Source: Takakia lepidozioides
Taxonomy: Eukaryota; Plantae; Bryophyta
Length of the DNA stretch: 64,000 bases
Assembly (NCBI GenBank): GCA_030704615.1
Contig: CM060732.1
Location: forward strand, 22,630,001-22,694,000
Reading direction: 5' to 3'
Part shown: positions 4,256 to 56,437 of the stretch, piece after piece
Position numbering within the stretch: the stretch's first letter is position 1
How the letters are laid out: every line of letters begins with the position of its first letter
Position numbers and translations under genes: made by a program
Notes under the pieces: generated by a model
What the model saw: the letters and a program-made list of their open reading frames with translations, nothing else
Told to the model about the DNA's origin: nothing
Databases searched by the model: none

Positions 4256-4273
4256 ACACATACGAGCCATGCC

Positions 4274-5371: not shown

Positions 5372-5408
5372 TTACCCCTTCCCCCTCAAAAAGCCGTGTC
5401 CTCACGGT

Positions 5409-8075: not shown

Positions 8076-8096
8076 AAGAAATGAAAGACATGGGAC

Positions 8097-18000: not shown

Positions 18001-18722
18001 GCGGGCTATACTACGCTGCTTGTTTTCTGATACGTTACCACATAGAGCAACAAAAGATGCAAGCACGCTTTCAAAGTTACTCCAGTGGAGATCATTGGGT
18101 ATTACCTTCGGTGCCACCTCATATGTACCTATATGACCCAAAAGTTATGATACAGAAGGATTCTCAAATTCGTTCATGGTTTCAAGCAGCCTGCAACAAT
18201 TTGTCAACACAGAAATTCGGACTTGATGACATTTTCTATAAGGGACATATCGCATGGAAATACTTGCACGCTGCACCAGTAATTGGTACCCCACTCATCT
18301 GGACAGACAAGGAGCTCAGTGTCTACACCAATTTTGCTGTTCAACGGTTACACCAGGTTGTAAAATGCAAACTTCCAGACATGGTAGGACAGCATTGTAT
18401 GCCCCAGATGATTCCACAAAAAGTTCGAAAATTAAAACACCTGAGAGGCGATGAGGATTCTGATACAACTGTTTCTTCACAAAATTCTTTTGACATGGGA
18501 GAAGACTATGCAATTCAGATGGAAGAGAAGAAACAAAGGGGATCTCCTATGCCGGAAAGATTACCTCGATATCAGCCTCCAGAAGGCCTCACTTATCCAG
18601 GTAGTGATCAACCATCTCCATCAACCAGAGACAGACCTCGGGCTCGTACACACAGCCCACCACGAAACTCTCAACGTCAACAAGGTGCTCACTCACAAAG
18701 GTTTGCTACTCGGAAACAGTAA
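15000..18722 (+). CDS. Extra 3' ORF (ORF3, ~1200 aa) with a plant-transposon-protein-like N-terminus and a long coiled coil
   Basis: Open for 1240 codons (first ATG 15171). LQFLQNF...TVKGVELMITPLYLQQLFRLP resembles the Athila/Tat extra-ORF (Transposase_32-like) motif. The middle is heptad-rich. Confidence 0.8.
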   Translation: MAETRNEEQSFSLEQCLQAPQAYKRLPIAFCGNHTFLLCALQAFLQLLQPKQFCESKMKRVRGMEEIRVKSTTILQKQTMATPQAIKILKELRLEGLQSMDWTLHHRQYMLQFLQNFEPKTGTTTVKGVELMITPLYLQQLFRLPAGHVYVEEHRERLQIGDLFQEGSFFKTQGYACTKAVYPGLKDIGQVLNVLIALKQNQQYLSRSFTEEILKGLKGQEVPWADIMYNALVEEMKRLQGTTAKSPIIVSGPIIAQIILSSGILNAQERKEMGVFEPETTAMEEQGSSHSEGGLAAQPETKRQRRGKTVVADPLASRIPHDNVSQAHDQEGAQQHKRMLLLEAGPSEREEEVTSASQPTQPLERLVTRSQVIHAAQPEIIDLESEGIDIPTTEQIVAEIEKGDLLYEYSGLVKQTEIPEVQQLPKRNPEVHIMHTPVSEVPQAEGHDTVAPVINEVVQEENPVGQWSEWLVRHHTVEDREEQQQPHHDDPQQAMLMSSIGRTLNLLGTYVKTHVPITQLTALKEELRKEFEARLATECANKVDEEVTLKMKQDLANTEMALQLAKQQLIEAGLAQDQLHEAHKQQLYQMQVQHESKLQELNALHTELQTVHNRMAIQCATFTTMLDQSTKEINSQAEKCTKAEEENVEHMKLIVDMKNTICRNEDTFKQYRQMEAENEKYIVELQQTIVANRNEIAVSNKASKEANNLLAAYAQLVEPQAKRMKALQQQLELYKLREEQTLRGTTSSLVDNSLMQVWLAQGPVEGKSPRKLTQSEMNELRLQVQNIATTTIDNVYSRIAELQEDVDGLQTQVEDLTSNIDQRVYIPQEQLMASYLQARTLAFQSSQEVQEMPMVQEPVPPPPQQVSVPVAEPVVTTTTPQPPQPEVWGNAAFNPPKTPAAREYSRAMIMPFNQIPIMLDLAWKEFSPPQSFAHYYQIMRIWLPVATRTKVLPNNRHIEDHHFAQYWHEAGTMLRELVAFQVVHGLIYTKTKEIASIVMGCGLYYAACFLIRYHIEQQKMQARFQSYSSGDHWVLPSVPPHMYLYDPKVMIQKDSQIRSWFQAACNNLSTQKFGLDDIFYKGHIAWKYLHAAPVIGTPLIWTDKELSVYTNFAVQRLHQVVKCKLPDMVGQHCMPQMIPQKVRKLKHLRGDEDSDTTVSSQNSFDMGEDYAIQMEEKKQRGSPMPERLPRYQPPEGLTYPGSDQPSPSTRDRPRARTHSPPRNSQRQQGAHSQRFATRKQ

Positions 18723-18760
18723 ACCGTGAGGACACGGCTTTTTGAGGGGGGAAGGGGTAA

Positions 18761-19852
18761 TGTTAGAGGACTGTAGGGGACTTAGACACTTATACGGGAT
18801 CTGTAGGGTACCCTTAATTTTTGCACAGACTGAGACAAACAGGAACCTTAGGGGTGACAGCAGCGCACTGTAGAGGGGGGTTACATAGCCCACACAGCCG
18901 ACACAGCAGTCACAGCCCACACAGCCGTCACAGCCCACACAGCCAACACAGCCCGTCACAGTCGTCACAGCCCACACAGCCGACACAGCAGTCACAGCCC
19001 ACACAGCCAACACAGCCCGACACAGTCGTCACAGCCCACACAGCCCGTCACAGCAGACACAGCCCACACAGCCGTCACAGTCGTCACAGCCCACACAGCC
19101 CACACAGCCCGTCACAGTCGTCACAGCAGACACAGCCCACACAGCCAGTCACAGCCCGGCACAGCCACACAGCCAGTCACAGCCCGACACAGCCAAACAC
19201 AGCCAGTCACCGCTTGACACAGCTGTCACGATAATAGGGAACGAAGAGTAGGACAGGGAACGACTGTGGGGAACAACACCAGTGAAGGGAACATGTTAGT
19301 TCACATACGACGGTTAGAGAGGGAAACGGTTAGAACCGCGGATAGGAGGATAAAGGGAAGAACGGGGAATGATGAGGGGATCATTATTATCATTATTCGG
19401 GGAGGACTTCGGAGTCAGGCGGGAGCGGAAGTCGGTGAGCACGATGAAGGAGGAAAGAGGATTAGTAGATGCTTGTTATATGCAAAGCTGTAGGATATTG
19501 TAGAGGAGAATAGAGACACAATGGCTTCGGCCTGATACCTGATAAATCATAATCTGATACTTATACGATACAATCACACTGTGTAGAGAGATCTGAGTGA
19601 AGCTGTGGATTGAATGGAGGAGTGAAGGAAACCGATAAATTGATGAAGCAAACTGATACTTAATTATCAATGGTAAGGTAGCTAAGATGAATGCGGAAAA
19701 GGAAACAAATAGGAAACACCCCCATGATACACTAGCTGTAGGTCATGACTGATTGTTCTGCGCGGGCTGAGTACTTAGAGATTTCCAACTCTTCTATCTT
19801 GGAGTTTCCGCCTCGGATAGCGAAGGGATGGGTGAGTAAAAGCCGCGCGACA
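18761..19852 (+). repeat. 3' LTR of inner element
   Basis: Follows the PPT; TG..CA ends; followed by TSD GATGG. Confidence 0.95.
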
Positions 19853-22800
19853 GATGGGAATTTGGTTGAAGGGCATAAGCATAGCCCTGCTGTACTCCCT
19901 TGCAGCTGGAGTTTTAGGTGGGTTAAAAGCGGCATTGCCCCATACCTCGGCTGTGGTGGCTGTGGTGTGGTTGTAGTAACCACAGGTTCAGCTACTGGTA
20001 CATTGACCTGTTGTGGTGGTGGTGGTACTGGCTCCTGTATCATTGGCATCTCCTGCACCTCCTGTGAAGACTGAAAAGCCAAAGTTCTGGCTTGTAAATA
20101 AGAAGCCATTAGCTGGTCCTGAGGGATATAGACTCTTTGGTCGATGTTTGAAGTGAGGTCTTCCACTTGAGTCTGGAGTCCGTCTACATCCTCTTGTAAC
20201 TCTGCTATCCTACTATAGACATTGTCTATAATAGTTGTGGCAATGTTCTGCACCTGCAGCCTGAGCTCATTCATCTCGCTTTGGGTGAGCTTCCGTGGGG
20301 CTTTGCCCTCTACTGGCCCTTGTGCTAACCAGACCTGCATAAGGCTGTTATCCACCAAGCTGCTTGTGGTTCCCCTGAGAGTTTGCTCCTCTCTTAGCTT
20401 GTACAATTCCAACTGCTGTTGTAAAGCCTCCATGCGCTTCGCCTGTGGCTCAACCAATTGCGCATAGGCAGCAAGTAGATTATTGGCTTCCTTCAAAGCC
20501 TTGTTACTGACCGCGATTTCATTTCTATTGGCCACGATGGTTTGTTGCAACTCCACGATGTGTTTCTCTTGATCAGCTTCCCTCTGCCTGTATTGCTTGA
20601 AAGTATCTTCAGGCGACAGATTGTATTCTTCATATCGACAATGAGCTTCATTTGCTCAACATTCTCTTCTTCTGCCTTCGTACATTTTTCCGCTTGACTG
20701 TTTATTTCTTTTGTTGATTGGTCAAGCATAGTTGTAAATGTAGCACATTGTATCGCCATCCTGTTATGCACTGTCTGCAACTCCGTATGTAGTGCATTCA
20801 GTTCTTGCAACTTGCTTTCATGCTGCACCTGCATTTGGTATAGCTGTTGCTTATGTGCTTCGTGCAACTGGTCTTGCGCGAGGCCTGCCTCAATCAATTG
20901 TTGCTTGGCCAATTGCAAAGCCATTTCTGTATTGCCCAAGTCCTGCTTCATCTTGAGAGTGACCTCTTCATCGACCTTGTTTGCACACTCAGTGGCAAGT
21001 CGAGCCTCAAACTCCTTCCTGAGTTCCTCTTTCAAGGCTGTCAATTGGGTAATTGGAACATGGGATTTGACATAAGTCCCCAACAAATTAAGTGTCCTGC
21101 CTATGGAACTCATCAGCATTGCCTGTTGAGGGTCATCATGGTGAGGTTGCTGCTGTTCCTCCCGATCTTCAACAATGATGTCTCACTAACCATTCAGGCC
21201 ATTGTCCCACCGGATTTTCTTCCTGAACTACTTCATCTATGACTGGTGTTACAGTGTCATGACCTTCCGCCTGTGGTACCTCCACACAGGTGTGTGCATT
21301 TTATGCACCTCAGGATTTCCCTTGGGCAACTGTTGCACCTCTGGGATTTCTGTCTCCTTGACCAGACCAGAATATTCATAGAGAAGGTCCCCTTTCTCTA
21401 TTTCTGCCACTATCTGTTCTGTAGTTGGAATATCTATCCCTTCACTTTCCAAATCAATTATTTCGGGTTGAGCTGCATGGATAACTTGTGACCTTGTGAC
21501 AAGTCGTTCAAGTGGCTGTGTTGGCTGTGATGCAGAAGTAACTTCCTCCTCCCTCTCTGAAGGTCCTGCTTCCAGTAATAACATTCTTTTGTGCTGCTGT
21601 GCCCCTTCCTGGTCATGAGCTTGGGAAACATTATCATGCGGAATCCGTGAAGCCAGTGGATCCGCCACTACAGTCTTTCCCCTTCTCTGCCTCTTAGTCT
21701 CGGGTTGTGGTGCTAGTCCACCCTCACTGTGTGAAGAGCCTTGCTCTTCCATTGCAGTTGTTTCTGGCTCAAACACTCCCATTTCCTTCCTTTCTTGTGC
21801 ATTAAGTATGCCAGAATTAAGGATTATTTGAGCAATGATTGGGCCAGACACTATGATAGGAGACTTTGCGGTAGTACCTTGTAATCTTTTCATCTCCTCT
21901 ACCAGTGCGTTGTACATAATGTCCGCCCATTGTACCTCTTGTCCCTTCAGGCCTTTGAGTATTTCCTCTGTGAAGGATCTGCTCAAATATTGTTGGTTCT
22001 GTTTCAGGGCAAACAGAACGTTCAATACCTGGCCTATCTCTTTTAACCCTGGGTACACAGCTTTGGTACAAGCATAACCCTGAGTTTTAAAGAAACTCCC
22101 TTCTTGGAATAAGTCCCCTATTTGCAGTCTTGCCCTGTGTTCCCCACATGCACCTGACCTGCTGGCAATTGAAACAATTGCTGGAGGTATAGGGGAGTAA
22201 TCATTAATTCAACTCCCTTCACCGTTGTTGTTCCTGTCCTTGGCTCAAAGTTCTGCAAAAATTGTAACATGTACTGTCTATGGTGTAGTGTCCAATCTAG
22301 GCTTTGCAATCCTTCCAATCTCAGCTCCTCCAGTATCTTTATCGCCTGTGGGGTAGCCATCGTTTGTTTCTGCAGAATTGTGGTGCTCTTCACCCTGATT
22401 TCCTCCATTCCTCTCACTCTCTTCATCTTAGACTCACAGAACTGCTTTGGCTGTAACAACTGCAGGAATGCTGTAGTGCACAAAGCATAAACGTATGGTT
22501 GCCGCAGAAAGCTATGGGTAATCTCTTGTAAGCCTGCGGGGCTTGCAAGCATTGCTCAAGAGAAAAGCTCTGCTCTGTCGTTTCGTGTCTATGCCACTGC
22601 GTAAGTAATATTGCGAGCGTATAGTCTGTTAGTTCCTCCATAGTTTCCAAGTTATAGCATTTATGGCCTGTCCTGTCGAGACGCCGTTACTCAGAACGAC
22701 GCCGCCTCTTGCGCTCAATTTCCCTCCATTTTCTTGATCATTTCTCTGGTTTTCTATTGGCTGTATCCGCTGTGACTGGATTTTAACTTTTATCTTCTTT

Positions 22801-25800
22801 AGTGGACTTTCCCTGTTGGATAGTCCACTAGGATCACACATGCGACATGAATTCGGCTTTTCTGTACTTGCCGTTCGTTCCGTTTCCCTTTTTCCGTATT
22901 CATTAATGGGCCCGCCTTTCATCCCATTTGACGGCCGTTCTTGTCCTCTTTCTTTTTGACACCTGTCCTTGCACTTCATTCTCTGCTGTGTGTCGCACCC
23001 TGACCTCCACGTGTCTATTTTTAAATTAATTTCCGTTTCTTCTTCCGTCAGCCATTTTCCTGAAGTTTTTATGTGTCCACTTGTCACTGATTCTATGGAT
23101 CGTGTAACTTTAGTAGGCTGTGTTGAGCTGTGACAGGCTGTGTCATACTGTGTTACCCTGTGATAGGCTGTGATGCACTGTGGTAAGCTGTGATAGGCTG
23201 TGACACGCTGTGGTATGTTGTTATAAGCTGTGTTGCGCCTTGCTGGGCTGTGATTGGCTGTGTCACGTCGTGATGGGCTGTGATAGGCTGTGTTGCGCCT
23301 TGGCGGCTGTGATAGGCTGTGTCCCGTTTGTTTTGCCCACCCTGGTCGTATATGCTGGGCCTAGCGACAAGTGTTCCATACTCCGTTCGTAACATGGTGC
23401 AGCCCGTGACTGCTCTTGCGGTTCAACATGCAAATCATGCTGCAGGGGTTTGTCATGGATACCACTGTACCCCTTCAACTTATTTGCATTCACTCTTCCC
23501 AGCATTTCTTTGTTAATGGTTTGTAACATGGCGGTGTTGTTATCATACATCTTTTGTATGACATAAGGTCTTTTCCACGGTGATTTGAGCTTAGAAGCTT
23601 GAATCTTTCCTTTCTTCTGCAACCATAGAACCAAATCCCCCGTCTTAAAAGTCTTTAATTTTCCTTCATCAAACTGTTCCTTTCGCTTCATCTGAATTCT
23701 TGTCATATTATCAGCTGCATCAGCACGTACTTCTTCCACATGGTATAATTCATGTTTCCTGACCTTGATGGAGTCTTGCAATTCCATTCTTTTTCCCCAC
23801 TCCGTTCTCATGGTAGGTAACAGGGAATTCCACTGGAAGTAAGGCTTCCATACCATAAACTAATTGGAATGGTGTATACTTAGTGGTGACTTTATATGAA
23901 GTCCTGTATGACCACAAAGCTGTCAGCAGCTTTGTATCCCAATCCGTTCTGTTTGCATTGACTATCTTAGCCAAGATAGTACATAGTATTTTGTTGGTAG
24001 CCTCTGCCTGCCCATTACCCTGTGGGTAATATGTTGTACTCTTTCTATGCACAATCATAAACTCTTTAGTCAACAACTCAATGGTCTCATTCATGAAGTG
24101 ACTTCCTTGATCACTGATAAATTCTAAGGGACATCCAAATCGTGTAAGTATGTTCTCGTACAGGAACCTTGCTGTGGACTTGGCTGTGTTGTCCCTCAAA
24201 GCTTTAGCTTCCACCCACTTTGTAGTATAATCAGTGGCTGTAATTATGTACCTGTTTCGTGTATTCTTGGATGGTGGATTAATTGGTCCAACAAAGTCTA
24301 GTCCCCATTTCTGAAATGGTTCCGTAGGCATTGTAGGATGCAAGGCCATTCTTCCAGATCTCTGCAAAGGTCCTAGCCTCTGACATTCATCACACTTCTG
24401 ACAATACTCATGTACATCTTTGAACAAAGTAGGCCACCAGTATCCTGCGAGTAGTATCTTTCTACTGGTAGTCTCTTCTCCAAAATGACCTCCAGCCACT
24501 CCTTTATGAACTTCCTCCAAGACTTTATTTACTTCATGGTGGTACAAGCATCGTTTTAGTACTCCATCAGGTCCTAACTTATACATTCTGCTTCCTACCA
24601 TAGTATAAGGTAAAGCTTTGATAGCAATTCTCTTCCTCTGCTCCTTACCATAACTAGGTGGGCACTGACCATGAGCAAGGTAGTATCTGATTGGCCACTG
24701 CCAATCTAACCATTCATCTGCACTTCCTTGCACCTCCATTACAAATAAACTCGCATCAGGTAACTGATCGTCCACTCCTGTGGCGGCCTCTCCTGTTGTT
24801 AGTCGTGACAAATGATCTGCCACAAGATGCAAACGGCCAGGCTTGTAAATAACCTCGAACTCAAACTCATGCAAGATTATTAACCACCTCGCTATCCTTC
24901 CACTTATCAAAGGTTTGTTCACCAGATATATCAGAGCCTGGTGATCCATATAAACACATAAACTTTCTTCCCAATAGGTAATGCCTGAATTTCTTGACTG
25001 CATAAATCATTGCCAATGCTTCTCTTTCCGTTGTACTATAGTTCCTCTCAGCACTGTTCATCAATCGGCTAGCATAGTACACAGGTGAATCTATATTTCC
25101 TGTAACATTCTGGGCTAACACCGCACCCAACGCTTCTCCTGATGCATCGCAGTGAACATGAAATACTACATGCCAGTGAGGGTTAATCAGCACAGGTGTA
25201 GTTGTTACTGACAGTGTAAGTTCCTCAAACGCCTGTTGACATTCAGCTGTCCAGGCAAACACTGCATCTTTCTTCAGAAGCTTGCTCAATGGTGCTGCTA
25301 TTTGTGCATACCTTTTGACAAATCTTCTGTAATAACTGGTTTGCCCAAGGAATCTCCTTAAACTCTTAACATTCACTGGTGGTGGAGAGACTTTAATGGA
25401 CTCTGTCTTCCTGGGATCCACAAGAAGTCCCTTCTTACACACAATGTGTCCCAGAAGCACCCCTGAGTTCACACAGAAAGTACACTTCTCTGGATTCAAG
25501 CCCAGACCTCTCATCCTGCATCTGGCCAGGCATAACTCCAATTTATGCAAGTGTCATTCTTAGAGCTGTACACACTGAAATCATCCAAAAACACCTGCAT
25601 GAAATCATCCAGATACTCATGAAAAGATTCACTTATCACTCTCTGAAAGGTCGCTGGTGCATAAAAAGTCCAAAGGGCATGACTTTGTATGCATAAGCCC
25701 CCCAGTCTGTGATGAAAGCTGTTTTCCCTTGGTCTTCTTCTGCCACTTGCACTGATTATAACCACTGAAGCCATCCATGAATGAGTACATCTCATGGCCT

Positions 25801-28800
25801 GCCACAGTGTCTAATACTGCTTCTGTGAATGGCAAAGGGAAAGGATCTTTCTTCGTACAAGCATTCAGCTTCTTATAGTTCACACATACTCTTAGCTTGC
25901 CATTCTTCTTGGGAACTATAACAATGGGTGACAACCAAGTTGTATACTCTATTGGGTATATAAACTTAGCCTCAGCCAACTTCTTTATCTCTTCTCCAAC
26001 CTTCTGTGCGTAGTTGGGATTCATTCTATACCTCGCCTGCTTGATTGGTACTGACCCTGGTTCCAGTTCAATCTTATGCTGACAGACTTCAGGTGGTATC
26101 CCTTTTAGATCCTCATAGCTCCAAGCAAATACATCTCTGTATTTGATGAACAAGCTTTTAGCTTCTTCGAAGAATTCCGGCTCCAAATCAGCTCCTACTT
26201 TCACCATCTCGGTTCCTCCTGAGTTCCCACATTTACTTCTCTCACCTGCTCATCAGCTGTGATTGTCCAACCAGTCACCACTTCATCCTTTAAGCTCACA
26301 GTGGCTGGTTCTTCTAGGATTTCTATCTCTCCCTCCTTTTCTTCATAGAAATGTGGTGGGTAATGCTGGTTTCCTCTTCAATTGGTGTTGCCGACACTAC
26401 ACCACAGCAGATACCTCTTAACAACTTAGGCTTTCCAGCCGCATCTCGCAACCTGCTCCCACTCTGGGTGTGCAGCAAATAGGGTAGCTTCCTGCTCCTC
26501 ATCCAGTCCTCCTCTCCAGTCATACCTCTGACTCCTCGAGGTCTTCTTGTAGCAGGTAATCTACTAGATTTCTTTGTGGTAATTTGTATCTCGTGCATCC
26601 CATTATGCACAGTTAGTAACTGAGAATTCCAGTCATGGAATACCCTGGCCTGTTTCAGCCACGGACGTCCCAATAATAAGGAGTAAGCCTCCATGACTTC
26701 ATCCATTTTTAATACAGTTACTGTGATCATAAAGATCATTTTCTGTATCTGTATCTTAACTCCTTTATTAATCCCAATGGCTGTACACTTCTTTGATCTG
26801 CCATTGTTACTGTAAATGGGGCTGGTTTCATGTTACTTAGACCAAGCTTCTTCCTTAATTGGTCTGTCATGATATTTACTCCAGAACCACCATCTATCAG
26901 TACATCAGTTAGTTCTGTGCTTCCAATTCTCAATTGGATTACTGGCATAGAATCATCAAAGTCCATGACTGGTTCTCGCCCTTCCGGCTTCACATTATAA
27001 CTGGTCACTTTGCTGTTCAGGTCTGTGTTTCCTGTCTCTTGGGCAATTCGATTGATTGCCTGATACAGCCTGTGCCTACAATAAGGTGCCACAGCTAATA
27101 GCTGTCCAATGGTAATTTCTGCTTTGGTCTGACATATTACTGCAGCCAAAGTCTCTTCATTACTTTGCATGTCTGCATCTTTTTTTTCCTTTCTTCCTCA
27201 CTCCCTTCTTTTTCTCCATCCGAATCAGAGGAATCTGCCACAGGAATATCAGTACTCTTTTGCATTTCCCTTATAGTATCTGCCACTTCCTTGTGCAGTT
27301 CCTTCTCATCTTTCCAAGTCTCTTCATCTTCAGGCATATCATTGCCACTTCCATTCTCATCTCTTCCTCTTCTACTGGAGGTATTAGTTTGGCTTTACTT
27401 CTTGTTACTATCATTGTACTTACTTCTGGTACAACACATGGCCTAACCATGTGAGCTGCCACCACTGGGCCCTCATTCACAGGAGCTCTCATCTCATTCT
27501 GGTGTCTTATCCAGAATGAACAGGCTGCCTTGCGATGTCCTGGCTGATTACAATAGTAACATAGCTCTTCACCATTGGGTCCTCGCCCTTGGTCTGTTCT
27601 TGGATTATTTCTATAATCCTGATTCCCGGGCTGGTAATTCCCCCTTGGATTACCCTGATAGTTGCCTCTGGAATTTCCTTGGTAATTCCCTCTTGAATTA
27701 CCTCTCCCTTCCATGCCATTGTTATAACCACCAGACCTACCATAGTGGTCCTGATCATGTTTCTTCTTGGCTGGGGCTGCACCTGATGCACCCTTACTTG
27801 CCTAGGTTCTCTTGCAGCTGTCCTTCTGTTGTAGTAACAATTCTCAGTAGAATGGTTATCCATTTTACAGATAGTACAGTGTTTCTCCTTCATGTGGCAT
27901 TCTGTGGTGGTATGGCCTTCATTCTGGCACTTTGCACACCATACACCCTTCCTCCAATGTGTTGCAGCCTCTGTGGCATACTTCTTCAAGATTTCTTCCA
28001 ATTTTTTTCATAGTTATCCCTCTTCAACTTCTCCTTTCTCTTACTCTTTCTTTTTAGTTCTTGCTCTTTCTTCATCTGACTCATCCTCAGAGTCCTCATC
28101 TTTTTTTTTCTCTCCTGAGCATTCCCAATTGCTCAATTCTGTTCGCAGTTTCAAATGCCTCCTCCACTGTATTATGGGGTAACATATCCACTTTCTTTGC
28201 AACTCTGGTCTTATCCACTCACAAACCAAGTCTTCTGTAAACCGGGCGCTGGTACTGCAGCCAGCTTTTTCATCATCAATTCCATCTTCTCCATATACTC
28301 TTCAACAGTTTCATGCTTCTTCTGCTTCAGCTGTTGTAACTTCCATACACTTCATCCTCAGTTTTACTTGTCCTGAACCTATTTCGAAATGCTGTATTCA
28401 AGCCATTCCAGTTAGGAAATGATTATCAGGGAATCTTGCATACCATTCACTTGCTTTCTTGATAAGTGAACAAGGAAACAGTCTCATCTTGGCATCATCG
28501 CCATTCTCATTGTTCACTATACACATGTGCTCAAATTGGCTAATGTGTACATCGGGATCCCCTTTTCCTGAATATATTGGAAAGGGTGGTTTTGCCCGTG
28601 TTGGTTGTAACGCCATCTGTGGCCCTACTTTCTGCCCACTGACAGGTGCTGGCACCCTTGCTGGTGCTGGTCCTTCTGGACCTGTTGTTTTGTGGTGGAT
28701 CTTCCACCAAGTGGTGGCCCTTGAGCACTCCTTGCTTCTGGTCCCACGATATTCACAGTATTCCCAGCTTCAGTTGCACTACTTCCCACACTCCCTGTCC

Positions 28801-29443
28801 CCCCAGAGCCAGATCCAGGCAGCCCGCCTGATCCCCCTGAGCCGACACCTTCGTTGGCCTGTGATCCAAGTGCTCCACTTGATCCAGGTCCAACGGGTTG
28901 GGATGTCCTGGTTGTAGTCTCAACCTCAGCTGTTGGGTCTACTTCTTCATATTCTTCCTCTTCTAATTTCTTCTCTCTGTTTTCATCCTCCAAGTTCTGC
29001 CCTTGGGTTTCTTCTTCACTCATGTAACTCAACTGTAATGGTGTTGGAGAGTCTGAACTCTCCGTTGGCTCTGCCACATCCTCTTCTCCTTCTTCATCTT
29101 CTGCTTCAGAAACTGGAGTTCCTGCTTTTGGTGTTCCATGCCAACTCTTATCAAAGATTTCTGTCAAGTCTTTTATCCAAGGATGTACCTCAGATCTTTC
29201 ACCTCGTGATTGATCTTCTTCCTGTACCAATTCCCTTAATCTTTCTTGCAAAGAAACAGAAGGAGTGGCATCCAACTCTAGTTCTTCGGTATAGGTGATG
29301 CACTTTGATCTTGATGGTGTGAGAGGTCCAGATGATTCCCCTATGTCTATTCCTCTCTCCCAAAGATATGGATAATTAGCTTTCAGATAGCTTTCTCTTT
29401 TTGATGAATATCTCTGTCGTCTAGCTTCTCTTTCATCACTCAT
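19853..29443 (-). pseudogene. Frameshifted ORF3, pol and gag of the outer element
   Basis: The ORF fragments align piece by piece to the inner-copy proteins, separated by many 1-2 nt indels. Confidence 0.9.
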
Positions 29444-30050
29444 GTCCCATGTCTTTCATTTCTTTTAATGTGGCAATAACCAAAACTCTCTTCTGTAATA
29501 TCTCTCGTATATGCCTGGGTTTCTTTCAAGCTTCAATGCACCCTTGGCTATACTTGAAGTCTCCGTTACCATATAACCATATGGCAAACAAGTCTGAAAA
29601 GCTGTTCTTGGTGTGAGTTTGATCCACAAAATATCCTTTGGAATCCAATTCTTTACCAGTACAAGCTCTTCATGCATATGAGTATAAACATTCACCTTTC
29701 TTTCTTCCCAGCCTTCAAACTCTACTCGTTTAATGGATAGCAATGCTATCACATAAACCAATGTTGGTAACCAACGTGCTCTTCCTCTACAGGCTACCTG
29801 ATAAATCTTTATCACTCCTTTCTCCAGACCCCATTCTGGATCAGCATCATGCACTCGTTTAAGAATATTTTCTTTACACCGTCTGGCAATTCCAAGAACC
29901 TTTGAAAGAATTGTTTGGACAATCTTCTTCCTTCGTTCCACAGGGAATTTGATTCACTTCAAATTCTTTAATGGTCCAACCACCATGATCCCACCAGATG
30001 CCTGTCACATCTGGTTGTTCATGTCCCAGGTCCCCAGTATGGTCGCCAAA

Positions 30051-31058
30051 TGTCGCGCGGCTTTTACTCACCCATCCCTTCGCTATCCGAGGCGGAAACT
30101 CCAAGATAGAAGAGTTGGAAATCTCTAAGTACTCAGCCCGCGCAGAACAATCAGTCATGACCTACAGCTAGTGTATCATGGGGGTGTTCCTATTTGTTCC
30201 CTTTTCCGCATTCATCTTAGCTACCTTACCATTGATAATTAAGTATCAGTTTGCTTCATCAATCTATCGGTTCCTTCACTCATCCATTCAATCACAGCTT
30301 CTCTCAGATCTCTCTACACAGTGTGATTGTATCGTATAAGTATCAGATTATGATTTATCAGGTATCAGGCCGAAGCCATTATGTCTCTAATCTGCTCTAC
30401 AATATCACTACAGCTTCGCATATAACAAGCATCTACTAATCCTCTTTCTCCATCTTTGCCTCCGATCTCCGCTCCAGCCTGACTCCCAAGTCCTCCCCGA
30501 ATAATGATCATCCTCTTCATTCCCCGTTTTCTCCCTTTATCCTCCTATCCGCGGTTTCTAACCGTTTCCCTCTCTAACCGTCGTCTGTGAACTAACATGT
30601 TCCCTTCGCAGGTGTTGTTTCCCACAGTCGTTCCCTGTCCTACTCTTCGTTCCCTATGATCGTGACGCTGTGTCAAGCTGTGACTGGCTGTGTGAAACTG
30701 TGACGGGCTGTGACTGGCTGTGCGACTGTGTTTGGCTGTGTCGGGCTGTGATTGTGCTGTGTGTGGCTGTGGGACGACTGTGAAGGCTTGTTGGCTGTGT
30801 GTGGTTTGTGTGTACGACTGTGACGGGCTGTGTTGGGCTGTGTTGGCTGTGTGTCGGCTGTGAATGGCTGTGTGTGGGTTTGTGATGTGACGACTTGACG
30901 GGCTGTGTTGGCTGGGGACGACTGTGACGGGCTGTGTAACCCCCCTCTACAGTGCGCTGCTGTCACCCTTAAGGCTCCTGTTGGTCTCAGTCTGTGCAAA
31001 ATTAAGGGTACCCTACAGATCCCGTATAAGTGTCTAAGTCCCCTACAGTCCTCTAACA
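30051..31058 (-). repeat. 5' LTR of outer element
   Basis: Adjacent to the PBS; ends at TSD ATGCC. Confidence 0.93.
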
Positions 31059-31456
31059 ATGCCCGCTTCCCACGCTGGTTTCCAGGTTACCGTGTGAAGA
31101 CTTTGCATTTAGGACAAACACATACATTTTGTTCACGGAACCAGGGCAAATGCACATGCCATTCATTGTAAGCGTCTATCTATGAATTTAAATAAAGTTT
31201 GTCAATCATTCTGAGCTCAATTCTGCCATATTTTCATATTCCTCTTTTTGTGCAGGCATTGCAGACATGGTGCATGGTGGCCCCCTTTGTTTTGTCCACG
31301 GTAATAGGCCCTCTTCTTGCAATCCTTGCCTATAGGACCTGCTTCTCCAGCAGATTTGTGCCACTCACGCTTCGCTGAGCTCACGCTTTGTAGCTACAAC
31401 GTGAGCTCAGCTCCCAGGCTCACGGTGTTGGGCTCACGCCGTAGCTACGCTGACGG

Positions 31457-32751
31457 CACCGCACTCAGTTTTGAGGGGAGCTCTATCACTTCCATTGTAG
31501 GCCGAGGTGAATAAGAAAGTCTTAGAGGCAGCAGGATCTGAAACGGAAGCCTGAGAGGGACACGGGGAAACTGAGTGCGGTGGCGCACTCATTTCAACTG
31601 GATGCTGGGCAATCGCTTGGGCATTAGGGAAAGAGGAAGGTGATGTTCACAGTTTAGGTCCAAGAGACAGTGGAGTGGTCACCCTGAACTGAGTGCGCCA
31701 CCGCACTCAATTTCTAAGCTCCATGGAGTCATTGAGTTGCTATTGACTGAGGTGAACGGTAGATAGAAAGTGCGTTTATTCCATAGTGAGATCTCTTATG
31801 AGTTCTGAGAATCACATTAAGTCTAACCTGGAAACTGGGTGCGTTGGCGCACATAGTTCAATGGTGTGATCGACAATGTTTTTGGACAGACGTGAAAGAT
31901 CCCAATGAACTCAAAACAGAAGTAGGCAAAAAGATTAAATGGCTCCTAGAACTGAGTGCGCCACCGCACTCAGTTTTGGATCACCATAGAATGGTCAGTT
32001 TGCTTATGAGAGAGGTGAAACGAAAGTTAGAAAGTTTGTTTCATTCAAAGTGAGATCTCTTTTGAGTTTTCAGATAGACAGAAACGATAACCTTGAAACT
32101 GAGTGCGGTGGCGCACTCAGTTCTGAGGTGAGGTCGACCATCTTTGTGGACAGAGGTAAAGACCCTGGTGTGCTCGAAAGAGAAAGCAGGACAGAGTGGA
32201 GGGCTCCCAGAAATGAGTGCGCCACCGCACTCAGTTTTTTGAGCACCTGTAGATGGTTGATTTGATGATGTCTGAGATGAACTACAAAGTGAAAATGATT
32301 GTGGAAATTGGAAAGCATTCTTTTTTAGTTATGGGACGGACATCAGAACACCCTGGAAACTGAATGTGGTGGCGCACTCAATTTTAACAGTGGACTCACA
32401 AATATTTGAAGACAGTATGTAAGTCGAAGTTGATTTGGAATCCGGTTTTTAACTGAATATATATTTGTACAGTTTTGAGTGTGGTGGCGCACTCAGTTTT
32501 TGCCTCCAGAATGAAGCACACAATGTGGAAGAGGAAGTGACAAAGGAGCCATTGACTGAGTAGAGATGGAGTGCCTGCAATGAACATAATTTCATAGATG
32601 TCATGGAAGGTGTCCAAGAAATGAGTGCGCCACCGCACTCAATTCCGGTTGACAGGAAAAGAGGGTTATGTGTGTTGTTTTGGAGAACTGATGTTTGTCT
32701 GTTCCGATCCTTTGTCAGTCTCGAAAGTGAGTGCGCCACCGCACTCAATTC
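31457..32751. repeat. Array of ~29-bp palindromes AACTGAGTGCG-(GTGG/CCAC)-CGCACTCAGTT with divergent spacers
   Basis: Half-site at 31457; full sites at ~31567, 31686, 31831, 31949, 32095, 32210, 32356, 32473, 32618 and 32723. Confidence 0.92.
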
Positions 32752-32819
32752 TTGTAGGTGCCAGATCAGGAAAATGTAGCTGTGGAATGACGGAAAGGCT
32801 GTAATTGTGGGAGGTGCAG

Positions 32820-35800
32820 GGGAGGAAAAGAAAAGGATTGCAGCCTGAGAAGCAGCAGCAGCAGCAGCAGGCAGTGACTGAGAAGCCTGTTGAAGAAGAC
32901 GATCATTTCTACGAAGAAGAGTGGCACAAAGTCCTCGTGTACCAAAAGGTCAATTCCGCGTAGGTGATCAAGTCTATGCAGGTACCTGGAAGCAAGATTA
33001 TGATCCCTCTCTACCGCCTAATATCAATGCCAATTGTTCGACCTGCCCTGACCGGGGATGTGTCCAAGTTGGAGCAGGATTTAGTCACGGGATACATAGA
33101 GGGTCTCAGTGTTTTACGTGTCCTAGTGCGATGCCAGTGGACAGGAGGTCTTGGTGGACGAGTCAATTGTGAAAAGCTGGGATCCAATATGGCGAGAAGT
33201 AAACGAGGAGTTTGAAGCCCAGATTTCGAGGAGACTGTCCACACAGGTGTTCTCCGGGAAAATGTTTCATATTTGGGATGGCAATCACCGCTTCATGCCC
33301 TGGATGAACGTCATAAACAAATATCACAGCACAGACGAGGACTGGCACTACCTTGTGGTGTCCATGGTGCTAGATCCAAAAGGAAACGTCACAGCACTTC
33401 TGACGGCTATGCATGACATCAACAAGTAGTAAGTATAATGCTCACCCTTCATGCCATCAGAATTCTCCGATTTGTTCTGTCTGTTTTGTATTTCCTGGTG
33501 AAGGAGGAATGGCATAGTGTTTGTGTGGGACTGCAAGGGAACCGAAAGTGCACACGTGACGACGAATTTGGTCCACACTCTATTCAGGATACAGAAAGGT
33601 GGGCCAAATGCCACTGGTCACCTTCAAAAACCTTATCAGTGCTGAGGCTTACAAGAAGTGCGAGACCTCCAAATCCGCCGACACATGGTACAAGCTCACC
33701 AGGGAGGCTTTCTGTGACTACATGTACGTTGTAAGTATTCCTTCCCTAGCTTTGTCTACTTGTTCATTCATAAAACCAGTTGACTAATAAGTTGTATACT
33801 GGAATGTTCAGCAAGAGATTGCGGAGGCTGGAGAGAAAGGGAAAGCAGAGTACTATGCCAAAAAAGACCCAGGGGAGCGATCCTCAAAAGGAGTGGAAGA
33901 ATCTATGAACAAGGAGATGGAGGTGGCGAAGAGGCACTACATGAGCGCGTTCGTGAAACAACTCAGAATAGCCGACCTTGGTTTTGGCCCAGAGTTCTTG
34001 AATCAAGTCAGGATCCACTGGAACGTGAACACCAAGCCCGAAATGATGCAGGAGAAGCTTCATCGCCTGTCCACTGCCGTAGTGGAGCTAGAGGTGAAAG
34101 TGAAATGGCTTGAGATTTGGAACGCCGACCCGACAGTGAAAGATAACCACTGCTTTCCGAAGAGTGAGAAGAACAAGGAAACATGAGTCATAAAGCAATT
34201 CAGTGACCATGTTCTCGATATGTGGCTGCACAAAGCCACGTACTGGGCACAGGTTTTTTCCTCTCCCCTTTCCATATCCACTGCAAATCTGCATTGCACC
34301 GGAAAAAGTCACTTACTCTTCTTAAACATCTTTTCTCTAAATTGTAGAACTGTTCTTGCGCAGATAGAGGCTCGGGCACAGCTGGTGCTGGAGAAGCAGC
34401 TGAACGATTACAAGATAACTATGACTCCACTGACAGATACTCTAGAAGTTTACGTCCGCCAGTGGAAAGCAGCTTGCTTCGGCACTTGCTTCTTCAGGGA
34501 GTTCGCCAAAGAGGGAGGCATCTCGTGCACTAACGACTTCAAGCAACAGCATGGATCAGAACAGGCCATGAAGAGGGTTCTATACAGGTTCGTCTTGACA
34601 CTCTTTTTCCACCCTTCTTTCCTATCTCACGAAGTTTCGATTTCGTTGCAGCCCTGCTCTTTTGGAATAAACAGTCCCAAAACTGTGCGCGCTGACGCAC
34701 TCAGTAAATGGGTATGCACTTCTGTGTCTCCCAAGCTTTCATTCTACATACGAATATCCGATCCTGTACTGAACCACACCTGCCCTAGCTTGTAAGTAGG
34801 GCCTGGGTGGACAGACAAAAAATTGAGTGCGCTGGCGCACACTGTCAAGGGGTCCTTAAACCATTATCTCACACTTTCCCCACTCACTAATATTCCCTCT
34901 GTTTTGATTGTGTAGGTACATCAAGAACGTTCTCATTCCAGGCAAGAACTTGAGTCGACACCCGCACTTTATTGACCTATGGTGTGATCCATCCAACGCT
35001 TAGACAATGTACACTGTAGGGATTTTGAAGGATTACGGGACCTCACATCTTCGAGACTGCTGCTGGTATATGGATATCCCACAGTCTGGATGCCCTTGGT
35101 CTGAGGTTGTGACCCGAAATCAAAACGACAATGCAGAGGCCTTGGCCCCTCTGACGGAGAAGGAGTTGCACAAGAGAAACTTGAGGATATTGGCTGAGAA
35201 AGAGCCTCTTGCACAAAATACGCCAGTCAAGCCTAGAAAGGACAAGGGGAAAGGGAAGGTAAAGGGGCAGAAAACACTCCGAATGAGAATGAGATGGAGT
35301 CCATGGTGCAACCGGGGCCAGTGCAGACCCCACCCCCAGCCAGAAAGCCTGACCGAAAGAAGAAGGGTCTGAAAGAGCCCTACGATGCAATGGAGCACCC
35401 ATCTAGAATCATTTTTCCGGGCATGTGCGAGCTGGTAAACGACGGGTTCCTGGCCATGATGGAGACAAGGAAGTCAAGTTACAGTGGTGATCCTTCCAAT
35501 ATGTGGGACAAGCTATGTGCTTTTCTCCAATCGGTAAGCAATTATCATGCATGTGTTTGTGTTTTGTTTTCTTTGTTTTATTTTTACTCGGATCAGAAAG
35601 GTCGCTTATAAAACATCTTCCCCTTCTTACACGCTATACTGGAGGGGGAAGGAATCTTGGGTGAATGGTGCACTGAAACCGTTTGCTTCGGAGATGGTTA
35701 TTGTGGACATTCCGGACGGGCATCCAGTCCCCGATATTCTGCCCAGTGACACCTGCCCAACATGGAACAAATTTGACGAGAGGTATAGGAGTTGGGTGTT

Positions 35801-36774
35801 TTCCTTTTGCAAGTTTTTCCTTTCCAATGCAGGGGTTCTTGTTATCATACAATCTGTCACGATGAGATGTCGCCGGGAGCTGGAAAGCTACTTGAAAGCC
35901 TCGGGGATGCGGATTATCAAGACTTGGAATTGTGTCAACAGCCTATATCTGATGAAGGGGGATTGCCTAGGGCAGAAGGTACGTTTCAAATATTTTATTT
36001 TTATGCCTTCTCTATTGAAGTTCCACTATACTGACTGCTATGAAGTCATGCGGTTCGCACTGCCTGAATTGAGTGCTTCAGCGCACTCAGTTATGGCGGT
36101 GCATGAGCAATGACTCTGAACCCGTTCCATCCGGAATGGGTCTACACTCCCACCCAGATGTGCTATGAAACATTCCTCACTAATTATTGACCTCTTCATC
36201 GCAGACCCGTCTATTTGAGGCCGTCTGTCTCGTGAGGGTACATCCACTGTCGACTCCCACCACAGTGGTGGAGTTCGAGCTTCATGGGGGAGGATGTTTC
36301 ATAAACGAGAGGTTTGATCCTGTCGTCGATGACATGCACTACAACTATGTGGACCCCAACGTATGTTTGCGAAAGCCAAATGGAACGCCTTGGAGAGGGG
36401 CCCGTGAAAAAAGCCCGCTTTTTATCCAAACGATCATTGAGAGTTGTTCTCGGCCAGGGGCCCGCATCATAGATCTCACTCTCGACACAAGTTTCTCTTC
36501 TTGCCTTTGTCATCGATTTCTTTCCTTCTGCACCTTCTTTACTCAATATTCTAAAAGTCTAATTCCATCATTCTGTCTCTTGCAGGCACTTCTTACCATG
36601 CTTGCAAGGCAAGGCAGGCATTGTTTGGTATGGAAGGAGGCAGATATTTTCACTGGCCTACTCGCCGAGTTGCAAGGGGGTTTGTCTACCTCCAATGTGA
36701 AGGATGTCACTGCGCAAATTGATATCCTCGACAGAGACGACAAGGACCTGGACAATGACTTTTCATGTGAGTAA
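32820..36774 (+). pseudogene. ParB/Srx N-terminal domain + beta-class N4/N6 DNA methyltransferase-like fusion gene, copy 2 (most complete)
   Basis: WDGNHR at 33274-33291 and AMHDIN. The MTase-like block reads EMVIVDIPDG (DIPDG at 35706-35720), FLSNAGVLVII, GMRIIKTW, FEAVCLVR, EKSPLFIQTIIESCSRPGARIIDL. There are about 8 GT-AG-bounded exons, a TAG at 32961 and several frameshifts. Confidence 0.75.
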
Positions 36775-37760
36775 GTTCATTTTCTGTCTATTTGATCCCT
36801 GTGTATATTCTCTGTCGCGTCCCCTTCTGTTGTCTAATTATTACCCAAATGGTGCATTTCTGATTGCAGGAATGTCAATGCACTCCCGTGGCCCCTGTCT
36901 TCCATATACTTGAGGGACTTGTGCTGGAGCCCACCTCCCTATTATGTCCTTCCCGACTACGCGGAAGGCATTGCTCGTGTGCAAGCAACACGCTCAGGCA
37001 CCTCCGCGCAAAGGTCTTCATAGATGTTAGTGCCGCAGTTTCAAGCAGTACTTCTCAGCAGATTCAGGTGGTGCATTAGCAGTGTTGACACCACCTACGG
37101 ATGTACTTGAGGGCATTCATTTATGGAACATGAGGGGACACACTCTCCGTTTTCCGTTGCACCACCATTTCTCTTCCCACCATCCGTTGTAATGAGCACG
37201 GACTACAATGAAATTCACATCCATGAATTGAAACATTCTCTCCCCCGCGTCCTGCAAATTTGAAAGTGTTTTCCTTCTAAACATTGCTCTCCAATTCAAC
37301 CGTGTGCATTCAATAAAAGTTTTTCAACAGAGTTGAATATGTGCATAGTCCAGTAGATAGTCATTTGACATATGCCATCATACCAATATTTGGTTGGATG
37401 GATGGAGGATGAATGTTTTTGGATGGATGAAGCCAGATTGGATGTGCACTGTGGATGAATGTTGTATGCATGGATGGTCCCATGGATGATGTCAGTGCGC
37501 AATATCATGCACATGGGCGAGATGGCGAGGTTCACTGTCGGGGTTGAGGTGGGTCCCTAAGGTTGACAAGGGTTGGGGTTTCTGTTTGGGGTTGCAGGGT
37601 AAATATGGATGAAGACGTGTTTCTGCGGTAATGGGTCCTCTTCCACGGAAATAGACGCCGCATCTTTCCCAAAATCATGTCAGGTGTCCTGGGCTCACGC
37701 CAGGCTCCTGGGCTCACACTCTAGCATCCCCCTCGTCGAGGGGAGGAAAGCGTGCTCACG

Positions 37761-38588
37761 GGCTATTCAGATGCCGACTGGGCTGGAGACATTCACAATC
37801 GCAAATCAACAACAGGTTACCTGTTTTGTTTGGGATCGAGTCCAATCACATGGGGTAGCAGAAAGCAGCCATGCACAGCTCTTTCATCCACAGAAGCCGA
37901 ATATATGGCCTGACGAGTGGAGCAAAAGAGGCTGTGGCTGAGGAGATTGTTTGGAGAAATTCAAGCAATCGACGAACAAGAACCAACGAAAATCATGGTC
38001 GACAATCAAAATGCAATTAAACTCTCTGAAAACCCAGTTCTTCATGACAGAACCAAGCATATTGCGATCAGACATCATTTTGTCAGAGAAAAAGTTGCAG
38101 ATGGTGAACTAGAAATGAATCATGTTCCATATTCTGATCAGCTTGTAGACATCTTGACCAAACCCTTGGGTCGTACTGCGTTCGAGAAAGTAAGAGACAA
38201 GTTAGGTTTGGTACACACAATTGACTACTCGAATTCTGCCAATAATCAGAGCATGTAGTCTAAACTAGAATGACATTTTTTATATACTCTCTTGGAAAGA
38301 TGAATAGCTTCCAAGTTCGAGGGGAGGTGTTGAGTATTTTAGTCAAAGAAGATCGACGACGTCTAGATCTGTAACGGTCGAAGAACAGATCAGATCAAAT
38401 GGCTCCACTCAATATGTGAAGTAGGAGCCTAATTTAGTGTCCAGACCACTCCGCCAGTCGCCACTAGTTAATCATGAAAAGAGTAGTGCTTCCCTGCTCT
38501 CTGATACTTAGGACTAGTATATTATGCTTGCTTCGGGTTTAATGAAGCAGACTTCAGACATCTCATTTCTCCTTCACGATTCCTAACA
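37761..38588 (+). mobile_element. Ty1/copia 3' remnant: RNase H, PPT and probable 3' LTR
   Basis: GYSDADWAGD..STTGY..TEAEY, DNQNAI, RTKHIAIRHHFVRE and DILTKPL. PPT GAGGGGAGG at 38319-38327. Probable LTR TGTTGAG..CTAACA at 38328-38588. Confidence 0.85.

Positions 38589-56381: not shown

Positions 56382-56437
<56 letters not shown>

What the first reader, a model, noticed from the sequence alone, without database searches (positions are those of the whole stretch)
31457..32751. CRISPR-looking array of palindromes with alternating orientation and alternating ~118/~146-bp spacing
Seen: ten full palindromes. Their 4-nt centres read GTGG, CCAC, TTGG, CCAC, GTGG, CCAC, GTGG, GTGG, CCAC, CCAC, and the gaps are ~119, 145, 118, 146, 115, 146, 117, 145 and 105 bp. 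The spacers have diverged strongly, with only traces of a 264-bp dimer left (GTGAGATCTCTT at 31786 and 32050), while the palindromes stay conserved. The core GTGCG-N4-CGCAC is shared with array 1, but the outer arms differ. Inference: purifying selection on phased protein-binding sites directly upstream of the ParB gene.
Basis: partly seen in the sequence, partly recalled or inferred. Interest (0 to 1): 0.82.

Follow-up and report, generated by a model that had tools for sequence, protein, structure and literature searches.

The report
Plant transposon's ParB-linked palindrome array
This is not CRISPR but a row of eleven conserved, evenly spaced palindromes inside a decayed plant jumping gene, likely the docking sites of a bacterial-style ParB/DNA-methylase protein that the element itself encodes and that would mark or shield its own DNA from host silencing.

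Summary
The array is real: ten palindromes TGAGTGCG-N4-CGCACTCA plus an eleventh cut in half. It is not CRISPR. The window is plant DNA, and the spacers are decayed copies of a ~263-bp dimer (55-68% alike) while the arms are 96% conserved. The array lies in a multi-copy DNA transposon, 10 bp before a predicted splice acceptor of a broken gene that joins a ParB-fold domain (Z 8.9 to bacterial ParB) to an N4/N6 methylase-like domain. Three subfamilies of this gene lie in the window. Each has its own palindrome arms around a shared CG-N4-CG core, and two carry them in the same introns. Spacings sit near whole DNA turns (p 0.001-0.07). A related element has landed inside the eleventh palindrome. 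Best reading (0.6): family-specific binding sites of the element's own protein, as in VANDAL/VANC. Binding is untested, and the methylase catalytic motif is non-canonical. The gene-plus-array design is in print for algal transposons, and this scan noted it before in other plant genomes.

The parts
31454..31467 (.). Palindrome copy 0, right part only; its left arm is replaced by the end of element A
   Evidence: Sequence; one X1 contig and one X5 contig carry the whole left arm here (loose ends before 31454 and 31457)
31572..32747 (.). Array B: ten palindromes TGAGTGCG-N4-CGCACTCA, with arms extending to about 26-30 bp; gaps 118,146,117,147,114,147,115,146,106
31686..32383 (+). Decayed tandem dimer of about 263 bp (two palindromes per unit)
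   Evidence: blastn 72% over 446 nt; spacer identities
32758..33426 (+). Predicted exon of gene B with the ParB-like domain; broken by stops and a frameshift; begins at a predicted splice acceptor
   Evidence: 61 of 95 residues identical to gene A's exon, which folds as ParB
33427..37020 (+). Rest of gene B: predicted exons for a middle region and an N4/N6 amino-methylase-like domain (motif-IV-like DIPDG in 35655-35978; SAM-binding-like motif across about 36460-36620); broken
   Evidence: Riccia homologue hits N6_N4_Mtase and phage DNA methylase families
34684..34703 (.). Single family-B palindrome in predicted intron 34588-34915
34824..34843 (.). Single family-B palindrome in the same predicted intron
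36070..36089 (.). Single family-B palindrome in predicted intron 35979-36204 (left core reads CT, not CG)
37650..37770 (+). Approximate right end of element B, with two CTCACG motifs like those at element A's end
   Evidence: Summed contig depth falls from 8,715 to 468 between bins 37540-37770 and 37771-38000; motif count; exact end not mapped
31064..31453 (+). Right terminus of related element A, inserted in palindrome 0 of array B; ends in a 59-bp imperfect hairpin and five CTCACG motifs; very high copy
   Evidence: 25 X1 contigs run on into unlike flanks at 31451-31453; depth about 1e5 vs 2e3-1.6e4
4274..31058 (-). Nested Ty3/gypsy retrotransposons inserted in element A (outer copy reverse, TSD ATGCC at 4269-4273 and 31059-31063; inner forward copy 6386-19852); later insertions, not part of the system
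   Evidence: the empty site is read in X1 and X5 contigs (loose end before 31074)
2560..4255 (+). 3' remnant of a transposase-like gene with a C-terminal SWIM-type zinc finger (Mutator-like, inferred); the 5' part is deleted at a half palindrome
   Evidence: Pfam SWIM E 0.14; Atlas first hit SWIM-type, score 0.82, a lead only
1471..2559 (.). Array A: nine palindromes around GTGTG CG-TTGA-CG CACAC plus a half copy, in a young 116-bp tandem repeat; gaps 104,116,116,117,116,169,116,116
1..1342 (-). Gene A: 5' exons of the paralogous ParB-like gene, divergent from the transposase remnant; runs off the window
61416..63900 (+). Gene C: 3' half of a third subfamily with its own palindromes at 61416-61443, 61524-61547 and 62867-62902, in introns orthologous to gene B's

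Best explanation
The array is a set of conserved palindromes in a multi-copy plant DNA transposon, likely the family-specific binding sites of the element's own ParB-fold/methylase-like accessory protein, which would dock on them side by side and mark or shield the element against host silencing. Shown: the repeat anatomy; arms conserved over spacers; a multi-copy family; the neighbouring broken gene with a ParB fold; three gene subfamilies each with its own arms around CG-N4-CG; sites confined to predicted non-coding DNA. Inferred steps: (1) A dimer reads the symmetric arms in double-stranded DNA, which explains why the 4-nt centre is kept but may face either way. (2) Spacing by whole turns (10, 11, 14, 16) puts dimers on one face of the helix for cooperative loading. 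(3) The ParB domain binds a nucleotide and may clamp and spread, as bacterial ParB does from parS. (4) The methylase-like domain writes an adenine-type mark or, with its altered catalytic motif, only covers the CGs. (5) The array grew by tandem duplication of a two-site unit, after which the spacers drifted. This copy is dead.
For: Arms: 6 mismatches in 160 vs spacers 55-68%. 18 of 20 core CGs are intact while spacer CpG o/e is 0.41. Of 40 shown (of 105) differences to other family copies, 0 of 28 polymorphic places lie in the 20-mers (p 0.008 if independent); the 3 that do are private decay of this copy, the family having the consensus letter. CG-N4-CG palindromes: 9 in element A (0.33 expected), 12 in B (0.34), 3 in C (0.14), 0 in 26.8 kb of Ty3 (1.0), 2 in 23.6 kb of other DNA (0.77). 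B and C hold single sites in the same two introns, with different arms, although the one intron pair compared is barely alike (z 2.0). In-phase spacing peaks at 10.5 bp over a 6-20 bp scan. ParB fold: pLDDT 90.7; Z 8.9, rmsd 2.1 A over 88 residues to Myxococcus ParB; the first five rows are all ParB. The G-N-H-R motif is kept in 66, 72, 67 and 61 of 72 rows. The genes were under protein-level selection: differences by codon position are 25/21/52 (A vs B), 34/24/61 and 41/30/59 (B vs C). Precedents: inverted-repeat arrays beside a ParB accessory gene in red-algal Plavaka; a ParB + N4/N6 methylase gene in Ectocarpus Sola1-1; VANC binding shown for tandem motifs in non-coding DNA.
Against: No binding, methylation or expression data. 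No DNA-reading domain was identified; the middle of the protein was not folded. Motif IV reads DIPDG in B and C, DLPTG in Riccia, DFPIG and DVPFG in Adiantum: 4 of these 5 lack the aromatic residue of the canonical motif (canonical form recalled; TSPPY in Marchantia). The Pfam methylase hit is on a Riccia homologue only, below the gathering cut-off. Copies 7 and 8 have TG for the left CG, seemingly family-wide (all six T>C places of X1 are shown and none is there), and the site at 36070 has CT. Phasing falls to p 0.07 when equal lengths are merged; the gaps 124 and 140 are off phase. The polymorphism test rests on rows pre-selected by the tool, on contigs, with clustered places. The C arms are not one sequence (62867 differs from 61416). 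Arm-protein matching rests on three subfamilies in one window.
Confidence: 0.6

Rival explanations
1. The palindromes are binding sites for the transposase (internal enhancers of synapsis or of target choice), and the ParB/methylase gene merely lies beside them.
For: Element A landed inside palindrome 0 of array B, and array A ends in a half palindrome at a deletion junction: 2 of 2 junctions cut a palindrome. Array A lies between the two divergent genes.
Against: The element end carries another motif: five CTCACG in the last 100 bp of A, none in array B. That motif resembles the CACGCGC site of MULE-derived FHY3/FAR1 (PMC6000157 passages). Single sites lie in introns of the accessory gene. 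The consensus lines of element A's other flanks show no palindrome, at low agreement.
Confidence: 0.13
2. The palindromes act as structures (DNA cruciforms, or RNA hairpins in the intron that feed small-RNA or splicing pathways), not as protein-read sequences.
For: They fold as stable hairpins (z about -5 to -7). Arms differ between families yet stay symmetric. Breakpoints lie at two palindromes.
Against: Within a family the exact sequence, even the asymmetric centre, is kept with no compensatory pairs. The centre faces either way, which changes an RNA loop but not a duplex site. Whole-turn spacing has no role for separate hairpins. No Rfam family comes near its gathering score.
Confidence: 0.1
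3. The palindromes are sites for a host transcription or chromatin factor, an intronic enhancer the element uses to express its genes.
For: The CG-N4-CG core is common to all three subfamilies. The array sits at the 5' end of the gene.
Against: The arms, 16-30 bp in all, differ by subfamily. In 23.6 kb of other DNA, which includes host-gene exons, only 2 weak sites occur (0.77 expected).
Confidence: 0.09
4. The array is a neutral tandem repeat whose palindromes are kept alike by short-tract gene conversion and template switching.
For: Array A is a young 116-bp tandem repeat and B a decayed dimer. Flipped centres are what template switching gives (recalled).
Against: Isolated sites persist in orthologous introns. 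Copies flanked by unrelated spacers keep the sequence. Self-repair keeps symmetry, not one sequence. The CGs persist where spacers lose them.
Confidence: 0.07
5. It is a CRISPR-type array that yields guide RNAs.
For: A partly palindromic repeat of about 28 nt, regularly interspaced.
Against: Eukaryotic DNA with introns and Ty3 elements. Repeats lie in both orientations. Spacers are 86-127 nt and homologous to each other. No CRISPR family among the 5 Rfam matches at E up to 1. No Cas family in 51 of 104 ORFs scanned.
Confidence: 0.01

Closest known systems
Plavaka (EnSpm-type) giant transposons of the red alga Bostrychia, accessory genes PAG2/PAG3 (bioRxiv 10.1101/2025.02.11.637652; passages read; supplements closed)
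   Same: [quoted passage not shown] Homologous accessory genes are said to occur in Chondrus Mutator elements.
   Different: There ParB is fused to a 2OG oxygenase and the adenine methylase is a separate SET fusion. Here ParB and a methylase-like domain are in one gene, in a land plant, beside a SWIM-bearing transposase remnant. The passages give no motif, phasing or family specificity. Sequence homology was not tested.
Sola1-1_Ec32 of Ectocarpus and its 1,104-aa accessory protein (PMC12477816; passages read)
   Same: A ParB-like domain plus an N4C/N6A methylase in one protein, transcribed opposite to the transposase; self-marking is proposed.
   Different: Brown alga, Sola transposase; 'palindrom' has no hit in its main text. 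Supplements not read.
VANDAL/VANC anti-silencing system of Arabidopsis (PMC5735166; passages read)
   Same: A TE-encoded protein with family-specific short motifs, amplified as tandem repeats in introns and other non-coding parts; protein and motif diverge together.
   Different: VANC motifs are 8-9 nt and 'palindrom' has no hit in that text; binding and demethylation are shown there and not here. Here the protein is of ParB fold with a methylase-like domain.
Bacterial ParB/parS and phage ParB-N6_N4 methylase fusions (PMC12704722 and PMC4738411; passages read)
   Same: The ParB-CTPase fold. Fusion to N6_N4 methylases is common in phages. ParB binds inverted repeats (statement).
   Different: A eukaryotic, intron-bearing transposon gene. 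No HTH, dimerisation domain or ParA was identified. Nucleotide binding is untested.
Marchantia MpDN4MT1 4mC methylases (bioRxiv 10.1101/2021.02.12.428880; passages read)
   Same: A prokaryote-type amino-methylase in a seed-free land plant.
   Different: Host genes with an intact TSPPY motif; 'ParB' has no hit in that text. Gene B has DIPDG.

Membership tests
CRISPR array | Direct repeats in one orientation separated by short unique spacers (definition recalled) | tested here: not met
   Both orientations; spacers 86-127 nt, homologous in a 263-bp dimer
CRISPR array | Cas genes nearby or a known repeat family | tested here: inconclusive
   None in 51 of 104 ORFs scanned against Pfam; no CRISPR family in the Rfam scan
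ParB/sulfiredoxin fold superfamily | ParB N-terminal fold | tested here: met
   Model of gene A's exon, pLDDT 90.7; Z 8.9, rmsd 2.1, 88 aligned to 7bnr_A; Foldseek best E 0.04, prob 0.97; no Pfam or PDB sequence hit to ParB
ParB/sulfiredoxin fold superfamily | Nucleotide-binding GxxR motif | tested here: met
   DGNHR in genes A and B; G 66, N 72, H 67, R 61 of 72 rows
Canonical ParABS | HTH and dimerisation domains, ParA partner, CTP clamp | not tested
beta-class N4C/N6A DNA methylases | Catalytic motif before the SAM-binding motif | tested here: met
   Order in genes B and C and in Riccia P0155/P0156; N6_N4_Mtase E 2.5e-5, below the gathering cut-off, and phrog_3008 E 2.4e-7, on the homologue's SAM-binding part
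beta-class N4C/N6A DNA methylases | Catalytic (D/N/S)PP(Y/F/W) motif (recalled) | tested here: not met
   DIPDG in B and C, DLPTG in Riccia, DFPIG and DVPFG in Adiantum; hence called methylase-like
beta-class N4C/N6A DNA methylases | Fold and activity | tested here: inconclusive
   Model of the Riccia domain failed, pLDDT 36; activity not testable
Mutator/MULE DNA transposons | Transposase with a C-terminal SWIM finger (PMC6000157 passages) | tested here: inconclusive
   SWIM-type motif at the C-terminus, Pfam E 0.14, Atlas 0.82; no MULE-domain hit; 5' part deleted
Mutator/MULE DNA transposons | Terminal inverted repeats and 8-10-bp target duplication (recalled) | not testable with these tools
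   The left ends of A and B lie outside the window and no genome is held; one terminus is shown by many unlike flanks
Transposons with ParB accessory genes (algal type) | ParB-like gene opposite to the transposase, inverted-repeat array adjacent | tested here: met
   Element A layout; element B keeps the array and gene, its transposase side is not in the window
Transposons with ParB accessory genes (algal type) | Common ancestry with the Ectocarpus or Bostrychia proteins | not tested
   Their sequences were not fetched
VANDAL/VANC | Family-specific motifs in tandem repeats and introns | tested here: met
VANDAL/VANC | VANC protein and shown anti-silencing | not tested
   No comparison with VANC was run; works-like claim only

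The most novel reading that the evidence does not exclude
Land-plant transposons run a parS-like system. A nucleotide-gated ParB clamp loads cooperatively on helically phased, family-coded palindromes whose CG-N4-CG core senses host methylation. It spreads along the element and shields or re-marks it with a methylase-like domain of altered chemistry. Families diverge as lock-and-key pairs, and relatives knock each other out by jumping into the rival's loading sites.
Probability: 0.2. Interest if true: 0.85.

Novelty: new variant of a known kind. Interest (0 to 1): 0.52.

Why it matters
Algal genome papers proposed that ParB-bearing accessory proteins bind and modify their own transposons, but in the passages read nobody tested it. 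This locus gives three subfamily-specific target sequences with a shared core, a spacing rule and a non-canonical catalytic motif, so specificity can be tested directly by arm swaps. If true, it is a second, prokaryote-derived route of sequence-specific anti-silencing in plants besides VANC, perhaps with a eukaryotic ParB clamp, and a possible tool for targeted epigenetic marking. The design itself is in print for algae and recurs in this scan, which caps the surprise.

Tried and rejected
No whole genome was held, so no genome-wide copy analysis was possible. The exact-pattern scan of metagenome contigs gave 118 loci: none had an array or matched the elements by blastn or tblastx. The one with two exact sites, L082, is a 163-bp direct duplication beside what looks like a bacterial tRNA gene. 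Related-locus scans with single exons found no relative in viral or prokaryotic genome contigs. Word-index protein searches found 1 hit for the ParB exon and none for the transposase remnant or the methylase exon; this is weak evidence. Rfam: 5 matches, all far below their gathering scores. Sigma-70 promoter scan: 2 found vs 1.3 expected; the 4 'terminators' are the palindromes themselves. Spacers are not self-complementary (z at most 1.1), so the alternating orientation did not come from inverted duplication of whole units; centre flipping is more likely. The methylase model failed, and PDB sequence searches gave only 2zie, a putative modification methylase, at E 2.2. The wide structure search was not run. 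No RNA holder was listed. Two RNA-guess runs gave no contigs on the array or the ParB exon, which is no evidence on expression. The A-vs-B codon row was out of register and was redone. Look-ups of earlier findings by sequence, near place and relatives were empty.

Full report
Observation. The array is there as described. Ten 20-mers TGAGTGCG-N4-CGCACTCA start at 31572 to 32728 with the listed centres and gaps of 118, 146, 117, 147, 114, 147, 115, 146 and 106 bp; 500 shuffles give a mean of 0.004 matches. An eleventh copy survives as a right half at 31454-31467. The left two thirds are a decayed tandem dimer of about 263 bp (72% over 446 nt). Homologous spacers are 55-68% alike while the arms carry 6 mismatches in 160 positions. 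No spacer is self-complementary, so the alternating orientation most likely comes from a flip of the 4-nt centre in the ancestral unit before the dimer was amplified (inference).

Setting. The window is eukaryotic: Ty3/gypsy polyproteins and genes in pieces with GT-AG borders. Named homologues of the ParB-like exon come from Riccia sorocarpa and two Adiantum species (7 of 10 clusters looked up), and 524 cluster representatives match at E up to 0.001. I take the host to be a seed-free land plant; this is an inference. Two nested Ty3 copies fill 4274-31058, with the target duplication ATGCC, and contigs of two samples read the empty site. Removing them gives: ParB-like gene A (minus), array A, a transposase remnant with a SWIM-type finger (plus), a terminus at 31451-31453, array B, gene B.

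The terminus is real: 25 X1 contigs run on from it into unlike flanks, and summed depth there is about 1e5 against 2e3-1.6e4 over array and gene B. Single contigs have depths of about 45-75, so family B is multi-copy, though depth is no copy number. One contig in each of two samples shows palindrome 0 whole, so element A landed inside it in this copy. Array A also ends in a half palindrome, at the deletion that removed the 5' part of the transposase.

The gene. Gene A's exon, read with X at one stop, folds with pLDDT 90.7. It matches bacterial ParB N-terminal domains: Z 8.9, rmsd 2.1 A over 88 residues, first five rows ParB; Foldseek alone reached only E 0.04. The G-N-H-R motif is kept in 61-72 of 72 rows. 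Gene B's exon shares 61 of 95 residues with it and is broken. A 1,207-aa Riccia homologue ends in a domain that hits N6_N4_Mtase (E 5e-5, below the cut-off) and phage DNA methylase families. Gene B's exon at 35655-35981 aligns with that domain (E 2e-6, 23%). The catalytic motif reads DIPDG in B and C, DLPTG in Riccia, DFPIG and DVPFG in Adiantum; four of five lack the aromatic residue of the canonical motif (recalled), so activity is uncertain. A model of this domain failed. A third subfamily, gene C (61416-63900), is 42-52% identical to B in three exons. Differences fall mostly on third codon positions in all three comparisons. Both arrays are followed by predicted splice acceptors (32757|32758; 1343|1342 on the minus strand), so they probably lie in an intron; there is no RNA support.

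Tests of the binding-site idea. (a) Across family copies: of 105 differing places the tool showed 40. 28 are polymorphic in X1 and none lies in a 20-mer (16% of the array; p 0.008 if independent, but places cluster and rows were pre-selected). 12 are private to this copy; 3 of them lie in 20-mers, where the family has the consensus letter. (b) 18 of 20 core CGs persist while spacer CpG o/e is 0.41. Against: the TG in copies 7 and 8 seems family-wide. (c) Palindromes with a CG-N4-CG core number 9 in element A, 12 in B and 3 in C (0.33, 0.34 and 0.14 expected), 0 in the Ty3 nest (1.0) and 2 in the remaining 23.6 kb (0.77). Arms differ by subfamily: GTGTG in A, TGAGTG in B, TGAATG[AG] or CATGAT in C. 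(d) B and C carry single sites in the same two predicted introns, though the one intron pair compared is hardly alike (z 2.0). (e) Spacings cluster at 104-106, 114-118, 146-147 and 169, near 10, 11, 14 and 16 turns. The best in-phase period in a 6-20 bp scan is 10.5; p is 0.001 for 11 classes, 0.007 for 9, 0.005 for array B's 6, and 0.07 when equal lengths are merged to 6. The gaps 124 and 140 are off phase.

Mechanism. I commit to family-specific docking sites for the element's own ParB/methylase-like protein (0.6). A dimer would read the symmetric arms on duplex DNA, load in phase, perhaps clamp and spread, and mark or shield the element. The anatomy, conservation, family specificity and fold are shown or computed here; binding, clamping, methylation and anti-silencing are inferred. 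Rivals are transposase sites (0.13), hairpin structures (0.10), host-factor sites (0.09), neutral homogenisation (0.07) and CRISPR (0.01). The element end carries a different motif: five CTCACG in its last 100 bp, none in the array. It resembles the CACGCGC site of MULE-derived FHY3/FAR1, which fits a transposase reading the ends and another protein reading the arrays. Mutator membership remains inconclusive.

What is known. Bostrychia Plavaka elements have tandem inverted-repeat arrays next to a ParB accessory gene (bioRxiv 10.1101/2025.02.11.637652, passages). Ectocarpus Sola1-1 has a ParB + N4C/N6A methylase gene opposite its transposase (PMC12477816, passages); it cites Iyer et al. 2011 for green-algal cases, which I did not read. 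VANC binds family-specific motifs in tandem repeats and introns (PMC5735166, passages). ParB-N6_N4 fusions are common in phages (PMC12704722 and PMC4738411, passages). Retrotransposon DAM domains are another system; 'ParB' has no hit in that preprint (10.64898/2026.05.21.726589, passages). I found no paper on a land-plant version in the listings, in a library limited to open papers. Supplements were not read, and those of the Bostrychia preprint may show array details. Earlier notes of this scan report the same design in other plant genomes and in this one. They gave me the Ectocarpus and VANC leads and the 'first intron, helically phased' wording, which I then tested; they are not counted as support.

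Verdict. A real, selected feature and a new variant of a known kind. What this window adds: three subfamilies with distinct arms on one core, orthologous intron sites, a spacing rule, a non-canonical catalytic motif, and one insertion of a relative into a palindrome. Interest 0.52.

Noticed in passing
window 31064-31453: The end of element A has 10-50 times the summed contig depth of the rest and occurs in RNA-guess contigs with other flanks; likely a very abundant non-autonomous (MITE-like) family. It ends in a 59-bp imperfect hairpin, 31390-31448.
   Followed up: partly
window 2545-2560 and 31453-31454: Both rearrangement junctions cut a palindrome: a deletion at the end of array A and the insertion of element A in array B. 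Fragile sites, targeting or chance.
   Followed up: partly
window 1535-2559: Each 116-bp unit of array A holds CAGGTAAGT, a consensus-like splice donor (consensus recalled) on the plus (transposase) strand, just after the palindrome.
   Followed up: no
window 4274-31058: A Ty3 copy with long open ORFs (6386-19852) is nested in reverse inside a 93-97% identical, decayed copy of its own family. It has an extra 1,240-aa ORF (15000-18722) with no Pfam match, and LTRs with 9-10-bp GCTGTG-type tandem repeats.
   Followed up: no
window 45403-47358 (minus): ORFs with OCRE domain hits, probably exons of a host gene.
   Followed up: no
window 57559-61415: A decayed Ty3 element of another family abuts gene C's intron right at the palindrome 61416-61443; gene C's 5' half is not beside it.
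   Followed up: no
window 55423-56368 and 55954-56510: A diverged repeat of about 100-115 bp in four copies, and an 87-bp inverted pair flanking part of it, next to an (AG)26 run.
   Followed up: no
window 37917-38330: A fragment that reads like the RNase H end and purine tract of a copia-type element (resemblance recalled; no Pfam hit), just right of element B.
   Followed up: no
window 32273-32492: Some family-B copies skip 218 bp here, losing copy 7 and most of copy 8; seen in all four runs laid, so array length varies within the family.
   Followed up: no
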